From positions 1,433,884 through 1,497,883 of the forward strand of contig OZ251507.1 of assembly GCA_965242895.1 (NCBI GenBank): a stretch of 64,000 nucleotides of DNA, written 5' to 3'. Every line of letters begins with the position of its first letter. Position 1 is the stretch's first letter. Made by a program: the position numbers and the translations under genes. Shown here one piece after another: positions 22,999-32,391 of this stretch. Below the pieces are notes generated by a model, which did not search any database, was not told the DNA's origin, and saw only the letters and a list, made by a program, of their open reading frames with translations. The DNA is from Acidimicrobiales bacterium. Lineage in GTDB: Bacteria > Actinomycetota > Acidimicrobiia > Acidimicrobiales > CATQHL01.

Positions 22999-24375
22999 AT
23001 GGGGGGTTGGTTTCGGCGCGCGGCAGTGGGGGCGGTCGTGTTGTTGCTGGTTGTCGGTTGTTCTGGGGGTCGGGTGGGTGACCGCCCGGGGATTCCTCTT
23101 TCGGAGTCTGCAGAGGAGGACGCTGGCGGGGTTCCGTCGGTGGTTGGGGAGGTAGGGGATGTAAGAGATGTTGGGGTTGAGCCTATTCGTTTAGGGTTGG
23201 TGATGGCTTCTTCTGGAGGTTTAGCATTGCTGGATTCTCCTGTGGTTGAGGCGTTGAGGTATGCGGTGCGGCAGGTGAACGAGTCTGGGGGTTTGTTAGG
23301 GCGTCCGCTGGAATTGTTGGAATATGATTCTAATTCTGAGTTGAACGTCGCTTACAACGCAGCGTTGAGGTTGTTGGAGCGGGAAGTTTCTTTGATTTTC
23401 GTTTCGTGTGATTTGTTTTATTCGCGCCCGGTGATGGAGGCGGCCGGCGACGCTGGGGTGCTAGTCGTGGCCCCGTGCGGGCCGGAGCCTCGTGTGGGAG
23501 GCGTGTTTGTGCGGCCTTTAGCGTTTTCTTCAGGCACTTCAGCGGGGAATTACGCTGAAGTCATGGCCGAGCACGCGGTGGCTGAAGGCCATCTGGAAGC
23601 GACAGTTTTCGTGGAGAGCGACGATGAGTGGTCGGTGGAAGCGTGCGATTTGTTCTCTGAGCGTTTCGCTGAGAGCGGCGGGCGTGTCGCGGGCAGGGTG
23701 GTGCTGGACGCCGCGTGGTGGGAGGTCGCAGCTAATATCTCGCGCCCGATGGTCTTGGAGATGCTGGCCGGAGTGTCGCAGTCGCCTTTGTTAGTGTTAT
23801 GCGGCGCGCCAGGCGGCAGAGGAAGGGAACTATTTCATCTGCTGCGTGCTTCGGGCGTGAACTCGCCTGTTTTGGCTACGAACGCTCTCGACGGCAGAGA
23901 GTGGTTGAGAACAGTGCCGAACGTTGGGTCGCTGGCAGTGGTCACAGAGGCTTCTATGTACGGAGACGATCCGAGCCGGCAGGTCAATTCTTATTTTGCG
24001 GGCACTCTAGGCGCCGAACCAGGGACGCCGGAGAGGATGGGGAGGTCGGTCACCGGCGCTGAAGGTCTCTGGATGTTCATACGGGCCGTGAACCTCACGG
24101 GGAGTTTAGATCCCGTGGCGCTGGCAAGAACGATCGAGGGGTTCTCCGACGTCGAACTCTGGATGGGCCCAGCTACTTTCAGCGAGGAATCCCACATAGT
24201 CGAGGGGCGGGCGCTGCGCGTCGTCAGTCACGCCGGTGGAGCCAGCAGGCTCATCGCAGTACGCACCCCCACCGAAACTCCACGCCAGACAACCGCTCAG
24301 TCCTCCACGGAGACTGAGCAGTTCTCCTCCGAAGCCCTCCAGCAGTCCGCGGGAATCGAGCAGCAGTCCTCCTAA
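22999..24375 (+). CDS. Orphan ABC-type substrate-binding lipoprotein (Leu/Ile/Val-binding, Peripla_BP_6-like)
   Basis: MGGWFRRAAVGAVVLLLVVGCSGG lipobox. IRLGLVMASSGGLALLDSPVVEALRYAVRQVNESGGLLGRPLEL is typical of LivJ-type binding proteins. No adjacent permease or ATPase gene is present. Confidence 0.75.
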   Translation: MGGWFRRAAVGAVVLLLVVGCSGGRVGDRPGIPLSESAEEDAGGVPSVVGEVGDVRDVGVEPIRLGLVMASSGGLALLDSPVVEALRYAVRQVNESGGLLGRPLELLEYDSNSELNVAYNAALRLLEREVSLIFVSCDLFYSRPVMEAAGDAGVLVVAPCGPEPRVGGVFVRPLAFSSGTSAGNYAEVMAEHAVAEGHLEATVFVESDDEWSVEACDLFSERFAESGGRVAGRVVLDAAWWEVAANISRPMVLEMLAGVSQSPLLVLCGAPGGRGRELFHLLRASGVNSPVLATNALDGREWLRTVPNVGSLAVVTEASMYGDDPSRQVNSYFAGTLGAEPGTPERMGRSVTGAEGLWMFIRAVNLTGSLDPVALARTIEGFSDVELWMGPATFSEESHIVEGRALRVVSHAGGASRLIAVRTPTETPRQTTAQSSTETEQFSSEALQQSAGIEQQSS

Positions 24376-24598
24376 GTCCCTCCGCAGTCCTCCTAAGTCC
24401 CTCCAGAAGTTCCCGAGAATAGATAGCCGCAGGCGGCTGCTTCGAGCACTTCGTTCGACCCCTTAAGGCTATCTAGCAGTTTCCGGGAAGTGACGGAAAT
24501 TGAATAGCCGCGCGCAGTTTCGGGCAATTCTCCGGCGCGGCGGCTCGGTCCAGGTGAGGCTTTCGGCTTCGACGGGCGAATGATCTTGCCGCTGCGCG

Positions 24599-24628
24599 TT
24601 GCACATTGTTCGTTATTGATGATATAAT
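24599..24628 (+). promoter_or_regulatory. Candidate promoter TTGCAC-N18-TATAAT upstream of the giant surface-protein gene
   Basis: It lies in a locally AT-rich stretch (24590-24690). TATAAT is at 24623-24628. Confidence 0.3.
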
Positions 24629-30247: not shown

Positions 30248-30297
30248 TCCAGTCTGAGTGGTCTAGGCTCCCCGAGTTAAAGGAAGGAGTGATTCTC

Positions 30298-32391
30298 GTG
30301 AAACGCGGAATCAGTTTGCCATTGTGCTTGTCGGTGGCCGTGTTAGCGGTGGCGTGCGGGGGGCAGGGCGCCTCGTCCGCGACTCCCGGAGAGGGTGCTT
30401 CGTCGCCGTTGGGGACGGGCGAGGTTCCGATTGGTGGCCCCACGGTTTCGGCGACTGTTCCGGTCGGCTCCGGTGTTTCCTCTGCCACGAGTGTTACGAG
30501 CAGCACTTTGGTGAGGTTGCCTGCGCCGGTCATGGAAAAGGTCACCCCTGTGGTGGAGGAGATCTCCGGCGGGGGGTTCATTTCGGTGAGCGCCGGATGG
30601 AGTTACTCGTGCGGGTTGCGCTTGGATCGTTCGGTGGAGTGCTGGGAGTGGAGAGCGGATCTGTTCGGCCACCCGGACAGGCCGGGTTGGAATAACGATC
30701 CTTTGGACGGGACGCCCCCAGGTGGGGAGTTCGCGATGGTGGACGCCGGTTGGGGGTACGCTTGCGGGATCCGCCCCACCGGCGGGGTGGAGTGCTGGGG
30801 GTGGAACCCCGTGGCCGCCCTGGATGCCCCCGCGGGGGAGTTCACAACGGTCAGCGCCGGGTTAGAGCACGCTTGCGCTCTCCGCCCTGGGGGTGAAGTG
30901 GAGTGCTGGGGGGTGTCTTCCCGTCGGGAGGGCGTGCTGGTGCTCCCCGACGGGCCTTTTACCTCTGTGGTAGCGGGTGTTGCTGCGGGTGTGGGTTTTT
31001 TGTGCGGGTTGCGTCCCTCTGGTGAGGTGGAGTGTTGGGGGCGCGGTTACAGTGAGGGGGAGGCGTCGCCTCCTCCGGGGGAGTTCAAGTCGATCAGCGG
31101 CGGGGCTGGAAGTAATGTGTGTGGTTTCCGCCCGGACGGTTCTGTGGAGTGCTGGAGTCCATATTTTTTGTTGCCGGATTTCGCGGATGAAGAAGTATGG
31201 GAAGTTTCTTATTTCCAGCCAGGCGGCGTGTTCGAATTGGTCAGTCCAGGATCGTCGGGGTACGCTTGTGGGTTGCGCCCCTCCGGTGAGGTTGAATGCT
31301 GGAATCAGCCTGAGGAGCGGGTGGTACCTGTTCTGGCGGGGAAGTTCAACTGGGTGAGCGTTAAGGGTTTCGTTGCTTGCGGTCTCCCCGTCGGCGGCGG
31401 AGTGGTATGTTGGAGTGTTCAGACTGGGAGTAGCCCTTGGCGGGTGAGCGAGGGAGAGTTCAAGTCGCTTAGCCTCGGGGGGATTCACCATTGCGGTTTG
31501 AGGGCTGATGGTGAGGTGGAGTGCTGGGAATGGTGGGAGGACAAGTTCGGGGCGACTTCCCCCCCGGATGGGCGGTTCGAGTCCGTGAGCGCTAGCGACG
31601 ATTATTCCTGCGGCCTGCGCCCTTCCGGTGGGGTGGAGTGTTGGGGGTCGGATGAGTTCGGGAAGTCGACACCCCCCGGTGGGGTGTTCACCCAGATCAC
31701 TACTTCTAAGGATTTCGCCTGCGGCCTGCGCCCTGACGGTGGGGTGGAGTGCTGGGGGGGTCGTGATTCCCTGAGGCGGCAGAGCAAAGTGGTGCCCCCT
31801 CGGGAACGTTTAGTGTCAGTAGACGCAGGCTGGGGGGGCTGGTATAACTTCGACGATCAAGATTCGACTTTGCGTTACGGGGAGAGAAGGGATTGGGGTT
31901 TTTCGTGCGGCCTGCGGGAAGACGGCACGCCACTATGCTGGGGGGATGCTATTTCAGTTTCAGTGGATTCTAGTTGGGTCTTGCAGCCTCCTGGGGGGGA
32001 GTTCCTGAACGTGAGGATGGGGCAAAGACAGGCGTGCGGGCTGCGCCCCGACGGGTCGGTGGAATGCTGGGGAGGTATCGTAGTCATCGACGAAGACAAG
32101 AACCTATTTAGATATGAGGAGGGTTCCGTCGTCTATAACACTGACCCCGCAGCGGGGGAAGATTACGTGGACTTGGAGGTAGGGGGATGGCACGCCTGCG
32201 GGCTGCGCTCCAATGGGGGAGTGTATTGTTGGAACTGGTGGCGGGGGGCCATAGACACCGATTACGCCCTAGAGGGCCCCTACGAGTCGATCAGCGCTGG
32301 CTACAACCACTCCTGCGGACTGCGCCCCGACGGGGGTATAGACTGCTGGGGGCTAACCGGCGAAATCCAACGCCTCACCGAGGAATCGTAG
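30298..32391 (+). CDS. RCC1-like (beta-propeller) repeat lipoprotein, 14 repeats
   Basis: VKRGISLPLCLSVAVLAVACGG lipobox. There are 14 copies of the pattern F.(S/T)(V/I)S(A/G)G...(A/S)CGLR(P).G.VECWG. RBS AGGAAGGAG lies 8 nt before the GTG at 30298. Confidence 0.8.
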   Translation: MKRGISLPLCLSVAVLAVACGGQGASSATPGEGASSPLGTGEVPIGGPTVSATVPVGSGVSSATSVTSSTLVRLPAPVMEKVTPVVEEISGGGFISVSAGWSYSCGLRLDRSVECWEWRADLFGHPDRPGWNNDPLDGTPPGGEFAMVDAGWGYACGIRPTGGVECWGWNPVAALDAPAGEFTTVSAGLEHACALRPGGEVECWGVSSRREGVLVLPDGPFTSVVAGVAAGVGFLCGLRPSGEVECWGRGYSEGEASPPPGEFKSISGGAGSNVCGFRPDGSVECWSPYFLLPDFADEEVWEVSYFQPGGVFELVSPGSSGYACGLRPSGEVECWNQPEERVVPVLAGKFNWVSVKGFVACGLPVGGGVVCWSVQTGSSPWRVSEGEFKSLSLGGIHHCGLRADGEVECWEWWEDKFGATSPPDGRFESVSASDDYSCGLRPSGGVECWGSDEFGKSTPPGGVFTQITTSKDFACGLRPDGGVECWGGRDSLRRQSKVVPPRERLVSVDAGWGGWYNFDDQDSTLRYGERRDWGFSCGLREDGTPLCWGDAISVSVDSSWVLQPPGGEFLNVRMGQRQACGLRPDGSVECWGGIVVIDEDKNLFRYEEGSVVYNTDPAAGEDYVDLEVGGWHACGLRSNGGVYCWNWWRGAIDTDYALEGPYESISAGYNHSCGLRPDGGIDCWGLTGEIQRLTEES

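What the first reader, a model, noticed from the sequence alone, without database searches (positions are those of the whole stretch)
22999..32391. Extreme coding-strand G+T skew that decays from 5' to 3' within each of the three genes, with an embedded A+C-rich patch
**Hand counts of 60-nt samples.**

| Sample | Location | G | T | C | A |
|---|---|---|---|---|---|
| 25081-25140 | Giant gene, 5' part | 27 | 23 | 8 | 2 |
| 23041-23100 | Binding-protein gene, 5' part | 25 | 21 | 12 | 2 |
| 16081-16140 | topA (core gene, for comparison) | 15 | 7 | 24 | 14 |
| 29701-29760 | Giant gene, 3' part | 7 | 6 | 25 | 22 |

**Pattern.**
- The skew fades toward the 3' end of each gene.
- GT-richness resumes at about 29970.
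- The 3' end of the binding-protein gene (24240-24360) is likewise A/C-rich.

**Interpretation (speculative).** C and A depletion on the non-template strand matches what strand-specific C->T and A->G deamination would produce, whether transcription-, R-loop- or deaminase-associated. The patchiness could instead reflect a mosaic, recombinant origin.
Basis: partly seen in the sequence, partly recalled or inferred. Interest (0 to 1): 0.6.

Follow-up and report, generated by a model that had tools for sequence, protein, structure and literature searches.

The report
Sawtooth G+T skew in surface-protein genes
Three neighbouring surface-protein genes of an uncultured Acidimicrobiales bacterium have a coding strand that starts almost free of A and C and drifts towards the opposite bias by the gene's end; the pattern affects silent sites, recurs in every related gene copy examined in four related assemblies, and has no established explanation.

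Summary
All four hand counts are exact. At four-fold degenerate sites, G+T is 0.89 in the first 1.8 kb of the giant gene, 0.81 at the 5' end of the binding-protein gene and 0.68 in the RCC1 gene. It is 0.52 in 20 ordinary + strand genes of the window. Only these three genes show a 5'-to-3' decline.

The skew also covers non-coding leader and trailer sequence. It has no neighbour-base context. It is not shared by two other binding-protein genes of the same family in the window.

The giant gene belongs to a mosaic, recombining multigene family. A poly-G tract interrupts the reading frame here. In a sister genome, single reading frames run from 0.95 to 0.10 G+T at silent sites. The A+C-rich zones have the reverse-complement composition of the G+T-rich zones. 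Homologous segments can have opposite polarity in different paralogues.

Amino-acid composition, translational selection, foreign origin and a motif-specific deaminase are excluded or unlikely.

My best explanation (confidence about 0.4) is strand-specific loss of C and A on DNA displaced during transcription or R-loop formation. Selection for a recombination-prone or termination-related composition remains a serious rival.

The parts
22582..22655 (+). tRNA-Thr(CGT), the left border of the three-gene cluster
   Evidence: ARAGORN and Rfam. Composition up to 22859 is normal, with G+T 0.54.
22860..23519 (+). G+T zone of the binding-protein transcription unit. It starts about 136 nt upstream of the likely ATG at 22996.
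   Evidence: Segmentation gives G+T 0.72. The leader 22860-22995 has G+T 0.76. The orthologue L001 has a 297-nt upstream stretch at 0.71.
22906..24375 (+). Lipoprotein-type solute-binding protein gene (Peripla_BP_6)
   Evidence: Pfam E = 8e-29. A lipobox-like LLVVGCSGG is present. Third-position G+T by thirds is 0.81, 0.64, 0.48.
24100..24440 (+). A+C zone at the 3' end of the binding-protein gene, running about 65 nt past the stop codon
   Evidence: Four-fold G+T is 0.33, p = 6e-3. The stretch 24376-24440 after the stop has G+T 0.43. A perfect 21-bp tandem duplication lies at 24363-24404.
24600..24628 (+). Promoter-like site for the giant gene (TGCACA-17-TATAAT with an extended -10 TG)
   Evidence: It matches 10 of 12 consensus positions and is the best site in 22400-33200.
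24693..24854 (+). Signal-peptide reading frame of the giant gene, ending at a stop just after the poly-G tract
   Evidence: Translation MSLIGLLSIRIASRSALAGVLLAASLVAPVALS...GGGGGHS*.
24830..24845 (+). G16 homopolymer separating the signal peptide from the giant reading frame
   Evidence: Adding 1 G or removing 2 G fuses the two frames. The orthologue L001 has G13 at the same site and needs -1 or +2. Paralogue L004 has no tract and is in frame.
24899..30247 (+). Giant secreted protein gene: Cys-rich N-terminal repeats, several FN3 domains (5 Pfam stretches) and a C-terminal region with an HELGH motif
   Evidence: Pfam fn3 E = 5e-40 with 5 stretches. No PDB sequence relative for the C-terminal 515 aa. 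Paralogues and orthologues found.
25020..26819 (+). Core G+T zone of the giant gene. Third-position G+T stays at 0.70 or more up to about 27600.
   Evidence: Segmentation gives G+T 0.71. Four-fold G+T is 0.86-0.94. Third-position G+T reaches 0.93. It coincides with the near-identical block shared with paralogue P0002, which ends near 27500.
29640..29969 (+). Core A+C patch of the giant gene
   Evidence: Segmentation gives G+T 0.33. Four-fold G+T is 0.30 and all third positions 0.24.
29972..29980 (+). GACAATAAT, an AT-rich -10-like element exactly at the switch from A+C to G+T
   Evidence: GAT AAT AAT or close variants are present at the homologous codons in 5 of 7 family members. The switch lies 300 nt before the stop codon in all 7 loci. 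Promoter function is inferred, not shown.
29970..32249 (+). G+T zone covering the last 278 nt of the giant gene and most of the RCC1 gene
   Evidence: Segmentation gives G+T 0.63. Four-fold G+T is 0.84 in 29999-30247 and 0.68 in 30289-32088.
30289..32391 (+). RCC1-repeat lipoprotein gene
   Evidence: Pfam RCC1_2 E = 5e-36. It has 11 internal repeat copies. The family is greatly expanded in these genomes.

Best explanation
What is shown. The skew is a nucleotide-level, strand-specific composition regime. It is attached to the transcription units of a lineage-specific set of surface-protein genes: the giant FN3 protein, RCC1-repeat lipoproteins and an associated binding protein. These occur in a clade of uncultured Acidimicrobiales.

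The pattern. From each gene's start the non-template strand is strongly enriched in the keto bases G and T. The enrichment fades along the gene and turns into the mirror-image A+C enrichment before the next gene start. This gives a sawtooth.

Proposed mechanism (inferred). The displaced strand is repeatedly single-stranded during transcription, most plausibly in R-loops. There C deaminates to U (read as T) and A to hypoxanthine (read as G). G enrichment of the transcript stabilises RNA:DNA hybrids, so the process would reinforce itself and drive segments to extremes.

A+C zones (inferred). They would be segments where the other strand is the exposed one, for example through antisense or divergent transcription from the next promoter.

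Role of recombination. Gene conversion among paralogues is shown. It moves G+T-type and A+C-type segments around and produces the patchiness.
For: - Silent sites carry the signal: four-fold G+T is 0.89 against 0.52 in the background. Arg, Leu and Ser codon choice flips between zones within one gene.
- Non-coding DNA is included: leader 22860-22995 at 0.76, L001 upstream stretch at 0.71, and A+C runs of about 65-70 nt past stop codons.
- The G+T zone at four-fold sites (G .54, T .35, C .08, A .03) and the A+C zone (C .59, A .27, G .09, T .06) are reverse-complement images, with no neighbour-base dependence.
- The same sawtooth appears in every related locus examined: orthologue L001, five paralogues in OZ241998.1 running 0.95 to 0.10, L011, and five tandem genes in L008 at 0.60/0.47/0.33 each.
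- Skew persists although silent sites are near saturation between genomes, so some force is still acting.
- Homologous columns differ in polarity among paralogues, for example 0.84 against 0.11, and first and second codon positions follow.
- Three unrelated protein families share the skew. Two other Peripla_BP_6 genes, glnA and a distant RCC1-SLH gene (L009) do not.
- 31 of 40 + strand R-loop-forming-sequence hits in the window lie at 22-32 kb, with extension zones up to 2 kb.
- Upward jumps are sharp and sit at gene starts. One sits just downstream of a strong promoter-like site and one at a conserved -10-like element.
- Composition-corrected silent divergence between orthologues is about 1.5 times higher in the G+T zone. 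This is my own estimate from the window/L001 excess-identity values (mean about 0.45 in the G+T zone and 0.58 in the 3' part).
- Background from the literature: non-template-strand G+T excess and transcription-enhanced C deamination are established (PMC2927911).
Against: - No direct evidence of transcription, R-loops or mutation direction exists for this locus.
- Polarised counts at four-fold sites did not show an excess of C>T or A>G in G+T zones (12 amino-to-keto changes against 34 keto-to-amino). That test is biased by the skewed composition of the outgroup and by gene conversion.
- No antisense promoter was found at the right edge of the A+C zones. No sigma-70-type sites were found at the jumps in L002 or L008.
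- The amplitude far exceeds known bacterial transcription-associated skews.
- Nothing explains why only these genes are affected; glnA, usually well expressed, is not.
- The G+T zone is the best-conserved part among paralogues. That fits selection or conversion as well as it fits this model.
Confidence: 0.4

Rival explanations
1. Selection on nucleic-acid composition. The G+T-rich 5' zones would be maintained because G-rich non-template DNA or RNA promotes recombination and gene conversion in a variable surface-protein family, as proposed for Borrelia vls. They might also keep long, poorly translated transcripts free of Rho loading sites. The C-rich, G-poor 3' zones would act as Rho loading sites that terminate each unit.
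For: - The family is mosaic. Its 5' G+T zone is homogenised among paralogues: P0001 and P0002 are near-identical up to about 27500, exactly where third-position G+T drops.
- Poly-G tracts mark it as a possible contingency family.
- A+C dips sit at gene ends and run into the 3' untranslated region. Intrinsic terminators are no more frequent than in shuffled sequence.
- vls cassettes have a coding-strand GC skew of about 0.5, attributed to selection (PMC11499132).
- Recent paralogue comparisons show more keto-to-amino than amino-to-keto changes, as expected if new unpreferred changes are later purged (confounded).
Against: - None of these functions needs T over A, yet the T:A ratio (about 15:1 at four-fold sites in the giant gene's first 1.8 kb) is larger than the G:C ratio (about 6:1).
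- A+C zones up to 2.3 kb long inside reading frames are far larger than a Rho loading site.
- Homologous segments have opposite polarity in different paralogues, which is hard to reconcile with a position-specific function.
- G-quadruplex motifs are few: 3 in the region.
- Silent divergence between orthologues is higher, not lower, in the G+T zone.
Confidence: 0.3
2. Strand-biased gene conversion or repair. Frequent conversion among paralogues starts near gene starts. Heteroduplex or gap repair would then be biased by strand, for example through asymmetric recognition of G-T against A-C mismatches by the actinobacterial NucS/EndoMS system, or through damage to the single-stranded recombination intermediate. 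A skew would build up in proportion to conversion frequency.
For: - Paralogue divergence rises from 5' to 3' in parallel with the fading skew.
- Mosaic blocks are present.
- Polarity changes at block boundaries.
Against: - For a break at the gene start, 5'-to-3' resection exposes the template strand downstream, which predicts the opposite polarity (my reasoning).
- A mid-gene break predicts maximal skew at the switch, whereas the skew fades towards it.
- The binding-protein gene shows the skew, and no paralogous copy of this particular gene was found; I did not search for one. The two other Peripla_BP_6 genes in the window are unskewed.
Confidence: 0.12
3. A dedicated DNA deaminase or other targeted hypermutator diversifies these surface proteins, as a bacterial counterpart of somatic hypermutation or of diversity-generating retroelements.
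For: The decay from the gene start over 1-3 kb resembles targeting by AID. The targets are surface-protein genes.
Against: - There is no sequence-context preference for the lost C or A.
- The most skewed zone is the most conserved among paralogues and between genomes.
- The flanking genes scanned against Pfam at the window, L003, L004 and L005, and the precomputed Pfam families listed for L002 (= L007), L008, L009 and L011, include no deaminase, reverse transcriptase or recombinase. L006's flanks and many smaller reading frames were not scanned.
- No template/variable repeat pair and no inverted repeats in 21000-34000.
Confidence: 0.05
4. The skew is a passive by-product of foreign origin (an island next to a tRNA gene), of amino-acid composition, or of translational codon selection.
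For: - The cluster abuts tRNA-Thr.
- The proteins are rich in Gly, Val and Ser in the G+T zone and rich in Thr, Asn, Gln and His in the A+C zone.
Against: - G+C is the same as in the host.
- The skew is maintained across saturated divergence in several genomes.
- Four-fold sites are the most skewed.
- G/T-ending against C/A-ending codons do not map onto any tRNA or wobble logic (my reasoning, based).
- The same protein segment is encoded in either codon set in different paralogues.
- RNA of the G+T zone is as structured as controls, so there is no selection for open mRNA.
Confidence: 0.03

Closest known systems
Transcription-associated strand asymmetry (non-template-strand G+T excess; transcription-enhanced C deamination in E. 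coli; T and G excess in mammalian introns)
   Same: Both have G over C and T over A on the non-template strand at neutral sites. Both are tied to transcription units and are strongest near the start (PMC2927911 background).
   Different: - The amplitude here is an order of magnitude larger: silent-site G+T up to 0.95.
- It is restricted to a few gene families.
- It inverts to the mirror image within the same reading frame.
- No expression data exist for this locus.
Borrelia vls antigenic-variation locus
   Same: Both are surface-protein gene families evolving by segmental gene conversion, with a pronounced coding-strand GC skew (about 0.5) that sets them apart from the rest of the genome (PMC11499132).
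   Different: - vls has essentially no AT skew (about 0.05), whereas (A-T)/(A+T) here reaches -0.5 to -0.7.
- vls has one expression site plus promoterless cassettes, whereas every copy examined here contains the long reading frame (L003's is N-terminally truncated, and the window and L001 copies are frame-shifted as assembled); only the window copy has a predicted promoter.
- vls shows no 5'-to-3' gradient and no polarity inversion.
Vertebrate mitochondrial strand asymmetry (own knowledge: gradients of C>T and A>G with time spent single-stranded during strand-displacement replication)
   Same: The magnitude and type of silent-site bias are comparable: one strand is depleted of both amino bases, and the bias is graded with position.
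   Different: The mitochondrial case is driven by replication across a whole small genome. Here the pattern is a kilobase-scale sawtooth in a chromosome whose neighbouring genes are unskewed.
GC-skewed R-loop-forming regions in eukaryotes (immunoglobulin switch regions, CpG-island promoters; own knowledge plus the review list)
   Same: Both have a G-rich non-template strand downstream of a promoter. The region meets R-loop-forming sequence rules over 1-2 kb.
   Different: There is no repeat-unit structure, no known deaminase partner, and the organism is a bacterium. T enrichment is as strong as G enrichment.
Homopolymeric-tract contingency loci (Neisseria, Campylobacter, Helicobacter; own knowledge)
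   Same: A poly-G tract lies in the 5' coding region of a surface-protein gene. Its length differs between assemblies (G16 and G13), and the frame is on or off depending on length.
   Different: This concerns the side observation, not the skew. Length heterogeneity within a population has not been shown, and homopolymer errors in assemblies cannot be excluded.

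Membership tests
Transcription-associated strand asymmetry | G over C and T over A on the non-template strand at selectively neutral sites | tested here: met
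   Four-fold G+T is 0.89, 0.81 and 0.68 against 0.52 in the background. Non-coding leaders are at 0.71-0.76.
Transcription-associated strand asymmetry | Onset at the transcription start and dependence on transcription level | tested here: inconclusive
   There is one strong promoter-like site at 24600-24628 and a conserved -10-like element at 29972-29980. No sites were found at the jumps in L002 or L008. No expression data are available.
Transcription-associated strand asymmetry | Asymmetric substitution rates (C>T above G>A, A>G above T>C on the non-template strand) | tested here: inconclusive
   Parsimony polarisation gave 12 amino-to-keto against 34 keto-to-amino changes in G+T zones. The result is biased by a saturated, skewed outgroup and by gene conversion.
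vls-type antigenic variation system | A single expression site plus an array of promoterless silent cassettes | tested here: not met
   The copies are dispersed, and each contains the long reading frame; a start with a signal peptide was verified in the window, L001 and L004, and L003's frame lacks the N-terminal part.
vls-type antigenic variation system | Pronounced coding-strand GC skew and segmental gene conversion among copies | tested here: met
   GC skew reaches 0.50. Paralogue identity is mosaic.
Homopolymeric-tract phase-variable (contingency) gene | A tract inside the 5' coding region whose length sets the reading frame | tested here: met
   The G16 tract at 24830-24845 puts the gene out of frame; +1 or -2 G fuses the frames.
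Homopolymeric-tract phase-variable (contingency) gene | Tract length varies within and between populations | tested here: inconclusive
   The tract is G16 here and G13 in orthologue L001. Paralogue L004 lacks it, and an RCC1 gene in L004 carries G20. Within-population variation was not testable, and assembly error is possible.
Diversity-generating retroelement | A reverse transcriptase plus a template/variable repeat pair differing at adenines | tested here: not met
   No long direct repeat pair in 21000-34000 apart from the RCC1 internal repeats. No reverse-transcriptase domain in the proteins scanned. Not every reading frame of the window was scanned.
AID/APOBEC-like enzymatic deamination | Depletion of C concentrated in a preferred dinucleotide or trinucleotide context | tested here: not met
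   C is 6-13% and A is 1-5% at four-fold sites whatever the 5' or 3' neighbour.
Horizontally acquired genomic island | Atypical G+C or codon usage of foreign type, with mobility genes at a tRNA site | tested here: not met
   G+C of 0.58-0.63 equals the window mean. A tRNA-Thr is adjacent, but the flanking genes scanned with Pfam or NCBIfam (holB upstream; SigH/RsrA-like pair and Zincin_2 downstream) are not integrases. The family is native to several related genomes.

The most novel reading that the evidence does not exclude
A self-reinforcing, R-loop-linked or otherwise locus-targeted strand-specific mutational regime operates on a family of possibly phase-variable, recombining surface-protein genes in these Acidimicrobiales. 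It would be strong enough to split single reading frames into two mirror-image codon sets (silent-site G+T 0.95 against 0.10) and to reshape the amino-acid composition of the proteins. That would be a natural bacterial counterpart of immunoglobulin switch regions and of the mitochondrial strand asymmetry, confined to contingency genes.
Probability: 0.25. Interest if true: 0.85.

Novelty: new variant of a known kind. Interest (0 to 1): 0.7.

Why it matters
Strand asymmetries in bacteria are normally small, genome-wide and tied to replication. Here a kilobase-scale sawtooth reaches mitochondrial-level bias at silent sites and inverts within single genes. It is confined to a recombining surface-protein family that may also be phase-variable.

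If the cause is mutational, this would be the clearest natural case of transcription- or R-loop-driven base composition change in a bacterium. It would also show local mutation pressure rewriting protein composition.

If the cause is selective, it would point to an unrecognised nucleic-acid-level requirement of such gene families, in recombination, termination or R-loop formation.

Either way the pattern gives a simple marker, per-gene keto skew at four-fold sites, for finding such families in metagenome-assembled genomes. It also shows that gene callers mis-start these genes.

Tried and rejected
- Amino-acid composition alone: rejected, because four-fold sites carry the strongest signal.
- Translational selection: rejected. 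The G+T zone uses NNG plus wobble-read NNT codons and the A+C zone uses NNC plus rare NNA codons (Arg AGA, Leu CTA). The same protein columns use either codon set in different paralogues.
- Selection for unstructured mRNA: rejected for the G+T zone. Its folding energy is -50 to -55 kcal/mol per 150 nt, like controls. Only A+C zones are weakly structured, at about -32.
- Long-range pairing of the 5' G+T zone with the 3' A+C zone: only a modest excess of complementary 10-mers over codon shuffles (54 against 25 +/- 7 in L004; none in the window), and no long duplex. No inverted repeats.
- G-quadruplex enrichment: only 3 motifs in the region.
- A-depletion opening all reading frames: not so, with 15-20 stop codons in four of the five non-coding frames.
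- Diversity-generating retroelement or deaminase neighbourhood: nothing found.
- Antisense promoter at the edges of the A+C zones: none by consensus scan. The scan is weak for actinobacterial promoters.
- Polarising substitutions with paralogue outgroups: inconclusive because of composition-biased parsimony and gene conversion. In the unpolarised spectra, G<->T changes are the largest single class in G+T zones and A<->C changes are the largest in two of the comparisons of A+C zones, as composition alone predicts.
- Searches that found nothing: holB in genome contigs; the giant family in JGI metagenomes; exact look-ups of the window's own proteins; PDB sequence search with the C-terminal domain.
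- Literature searches for keto or GT skew in bacterial genes found no report of a comparable pattern.

Full report
**1. Observation**

The four 60-nt hand counts are exact. Per kilobase, G+T is 0.58-0.71 in most of 22-32 kb, dipping to 0.54 (24001-25000), 0.55 (28001-29000) and 0.48 (29001-30000), against about 0.52 elsewhere. G+C stays at the window mean of 0.618.

In 300-nt windows the outside distribution has mean 0.528, sd 0.037 and maximum 0.627. Inside, the maximum is 0.77 (z = 6.5) and the minimum 0.35 (z = -4.7). Of 99 inside windows, 39 exceed the outside maximum.

By codon position the third position is the most affected. Third-position G+T is 0.64, 0.68 and 0.61 for the three genes, against 0.44-0.57 in other + strand genes and 0.35-0.45 in - strand genes. 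Sliding 100-codon windows reach 0.93 at 25500-26400 and fall to 0.27 at 29550-29850.

| Segment | Four-fold G+T | p against 0.52 |
|---|---|---|
| 20 + strand background genes (n = 5791) | 0.52 | - |
| Giant gene 24899-26698 | 366/410 = 0.89 | 5e-59 |
| Binding-protein gene 22906-23519 | 0.81 | 1e-11 |
| RCC1 gene 30289-32088 | 0.68 | 8e-10 |
| A+C core 29640-29969 | 17/56 = 0.30 | 1e-3 |

The 5'-to-3' decline is significant only in the three genes and is flat or marginal in the 26 others (|r| at most 0.14, one of them rising).

**2. What the genes are**

- 22906-24375 encodes a Peripla_BP_6 solute-binding lipoprotein.
- 24899-30247 encodes a 1782-aa protein with Cys-rich N-terminal repeats, five Pfam FN3 stretches and a C-terminal HELGH region. 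That region has no PDB sequence relative.
- 30289-32391 encodes an RCC1-repeat lipoprotein.
- Flanks are housekeeping genes: topA, an MFS transporter, holB and tRNA-Thr upstream; a SigH/RsrA-like pair downstream.

The giant gene has a strong promoter-like site at 24600-24628. Its real start is ATG 24693, which encodes a signal peptide. A G16 tract (24830-24845) puts that start out of frame with the long reading frame. Adding 1 G or removing 2 G fuses them.

The orthologue on scaffold L001 has G13 at the same place and needs -1 or +2 G. Paralogue L004 has no tract and is in frame. An RCC1 gene in L004 is split by a G20 tract.

**3. Family and relatives**

The giant protein has at least six paralogues in the same 2.78-Mb genome. 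It has an orthologue with 68% identity on an 11-kb metagenome scaffold (L001, same gene order). It has five copies in OZ241998.1, titled 'MAG: Acidimicrobiales bacterium' and 2.43 Mb long.

Nothing was found in JGI metagenomes. The RCC1 lipoprotein family is greatly expanded in these genomes and in a third genome of 2.55 Mb.

The paralogues are mosaics:
- P0001 and P0002 differ at only 7 of the first 755 residues, then diverge progressively. The break near nt 27500 coincides with the end of the zone where third-position G+T is 0.70 or more.
- Copies in OZ241998.1 alternate between blocks of high and low identity.

**4. The pattern is a property of the family and the lineage**

All relatives show the same sawtooth. 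In OZ241998.1, four-fold G+T runs from 0.80-0.95 over the first 2-2.5 kb to 0.10-0.30 over up to 2.3 kb. It returns to about 0.6-0.8 in the last 300 nt, then restarts in the downstream RCC1 genes.

The upward switch lies 300 nt before the giant gene's stop codon in all seven loci. There, 5 of 7 members carry GAT AAT AAT or a close variant, a -10-like element.

In L008, five tandem genes each show 0.60, 0.47 and 0.33 by thirds, and the A+C dip runs about 70 nt past each stop codon. L011 shows 0.85, 0.64 and 0.48.

A distant Acidimicrobiaceae RCC1-SLH gene (L009) shows no skew. Neither do two other Peripla_BP_6 genes or glnA in the window. The skew therefore follows the locus and the lineage, not the protein fold.

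**5. Nature of the force**

- **Mirror symmetry.** The four-fold composition of G+T zones (G .54, T .35, C .08, A .03) is the reverse complement of that of A+C zones (C .59, A .27, G .09, T .06). Neither depends on neighbouring bases.
- **Codon sets.** In L004, Leu is TTG in 33 of 41 codons in the G+T zone but CTC or CTA in the A+C zone. Arg is CGT, CGG or AGG against AGA or CGC.
- **Amino acids follow.** Gly, Val, Trp, Cys, Phe and Leu together make up 49% against 23%. Thr, Pro, Asn, Gln, His and Lys together make up 12% against 36%.
- **Polarity varies among paralogues.** Homologous alignment columns can be G+T-type in one copy and A+C-type in another. In columns 1350-1424 the window is 0.84 and L004 is 0.11. 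In columns 1500-1574, L003 is 0.85 and L004 is 0.03.
- **Non-coding DNA is included**.
- **The force is still acting.** Silent sites are near saturation between genomes, yet the skew persists in both.

These facts exclude amino-acid composition, translational selection and a decaying relic. Native G+C argues against foreign origin.

RNA of the G+T zone is as structured as controls. Complementarity between the 5' and 3' zones is barely above shuffles.

**6. Mechanism**

Joint loss of the two amino bases on one strand is the chemical signature of single-strand deamination. Transcription is the obvious process that defines strand and start point. Non-template G+T excess and transcription-enhanced C deamination are established (PMC2927911).

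The G+T zones hold 31 of the window's 40 + strand hits to R-loop-forming sequence rules, with G-rich extension zones up to 2 kb. This follows from the composition itself, so it is not independent evidence.

I therefore favour R-loop- or transcription-linked exposure of the displaced strand (confidence 0.4). The process could reinforce itself, because G enrichment of the RNA favours hybrids. A+C zones would reflect exposure of the other strand. Gene conversion would shuffle segments between copies.

Weak points of this reading:
- No expression data exist.
- No antisense promoters were found.
- The amplitude is unprecedented for a bacterium.
- The polarised substitution test did not show the expected excess, although it is confounded.

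The main rival (confidence 0.3) is selection for a recombination-prone or Rho-related composition, as argued for the GC-skewed Borrelia vls cassettes (PMC11499132). It is supported by the homogenised 5' zone and by C-rich gene ends. It does not explain the very strong T over A bias, the 2-kb A+C zones, or the polarity differences among paralogues.

Strand-biased conversion or repair (0.12), a dedicated hypermutator (0.05) and passive explanations (0.03) rank lower.

**7. Novelty**

Strand asymmetries, GC-skewed variation loci and poly-G contingency genes are all known. A per-gene keto/amino sawtooth of this amplitude is different. It inverts inside reading frames and is confined to a multigene family. 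I did not find it described. I file it as a new variant of a known kind, with a real chance (about 0.25) that it reflects a new locus-restricted mutational regime.

Noticed in passing
window 24693-24899 (G16 at 24830-24845); L001 5134-5146; L004 14072-14091: Poly-G tracts interrupt surface-protein reading frames. The giant gene's signal peptide is out of frame with the long reading frame here (G16) and in the orthologue (G13). An RCC1 gene in the sister genome is split by G20. This is either phase variation or homopolymer assembly error. Public gene calls start the giant protein 113-114 codons too late and without a signal peptide.
   Followed up: partly
window 24363-24404: A perfect 21-bp tandem duplication (GCAGTCCTCCTAAGTCCCTCC x2) spans the stop codon of the binding-protein gene, so the stop and the last codons are repeated in the 3' untranslated region.
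   Followed up: no
window 22722-22754: A 33-nt stretch between tRNA-Thr and the binding-protein gene matches the RCC1 repeat core (GTGAGGTGGAGTGCTG...) at 67-79% identity. It may be a remnant of an RCC1 gene at the cluster border.
   Followed up: no
window 30289-32391 and hits: The RCC1-repeat lipoprotein family is very large: about 20 listed paralogues in the 2.78-Mb source genome, and many more in the 2.43-, 2.42- and 2.55-Mb relatives, often in tandem arrays next to the giant genes.
   Followed up: partly
window 38498-41050: A single 850-aa reading frame combines a pantoate-beta-alanine ligase domain (residues 7-282) with a class II lysyl/aspartyl-type tRNA synthetase (residues 380-811). 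This is an unusual fusion if it is real.
   Followed up: no
window 8408-8501: A tRNA-Sec gene is present, implying selenoprotein synthesis in this Acidimicrobiales genome.
   Followed up: no
window 42533-44089: A branched-chain amino-acid ABC permease carries an N-terminal CarboxypepD_reg-like domain. Two unskewed Peripla_BP_6 genes lie nearby on the - strand (46888-49788) and served as controls.
   Followed up: partly
window-wide; L003-L007 flanks: Ordinary - strand genes have coding-strand third-position G+T of 0.35-0.45, against 0.44-0.57 for + strand genes. The + strand is therefore mildly G+T-rich at silent sites throughout, consistent with a replication-related leading-strand skew. The three skewed genes are co-oriented with it.
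   Followed up: no
L001, L010 record names; GCA_009841325.1: Record names (PANK22-1_SAMN12290754, ENGE20-1_SAMN12347686) and MAG titles suggest host-associated, possibly sponge, metagenomes. This is recollection only and was not verified. FN3- and RCC1-repeat proteins would fit the eukaryote-like proteins of symbionts.
   Followed up: no
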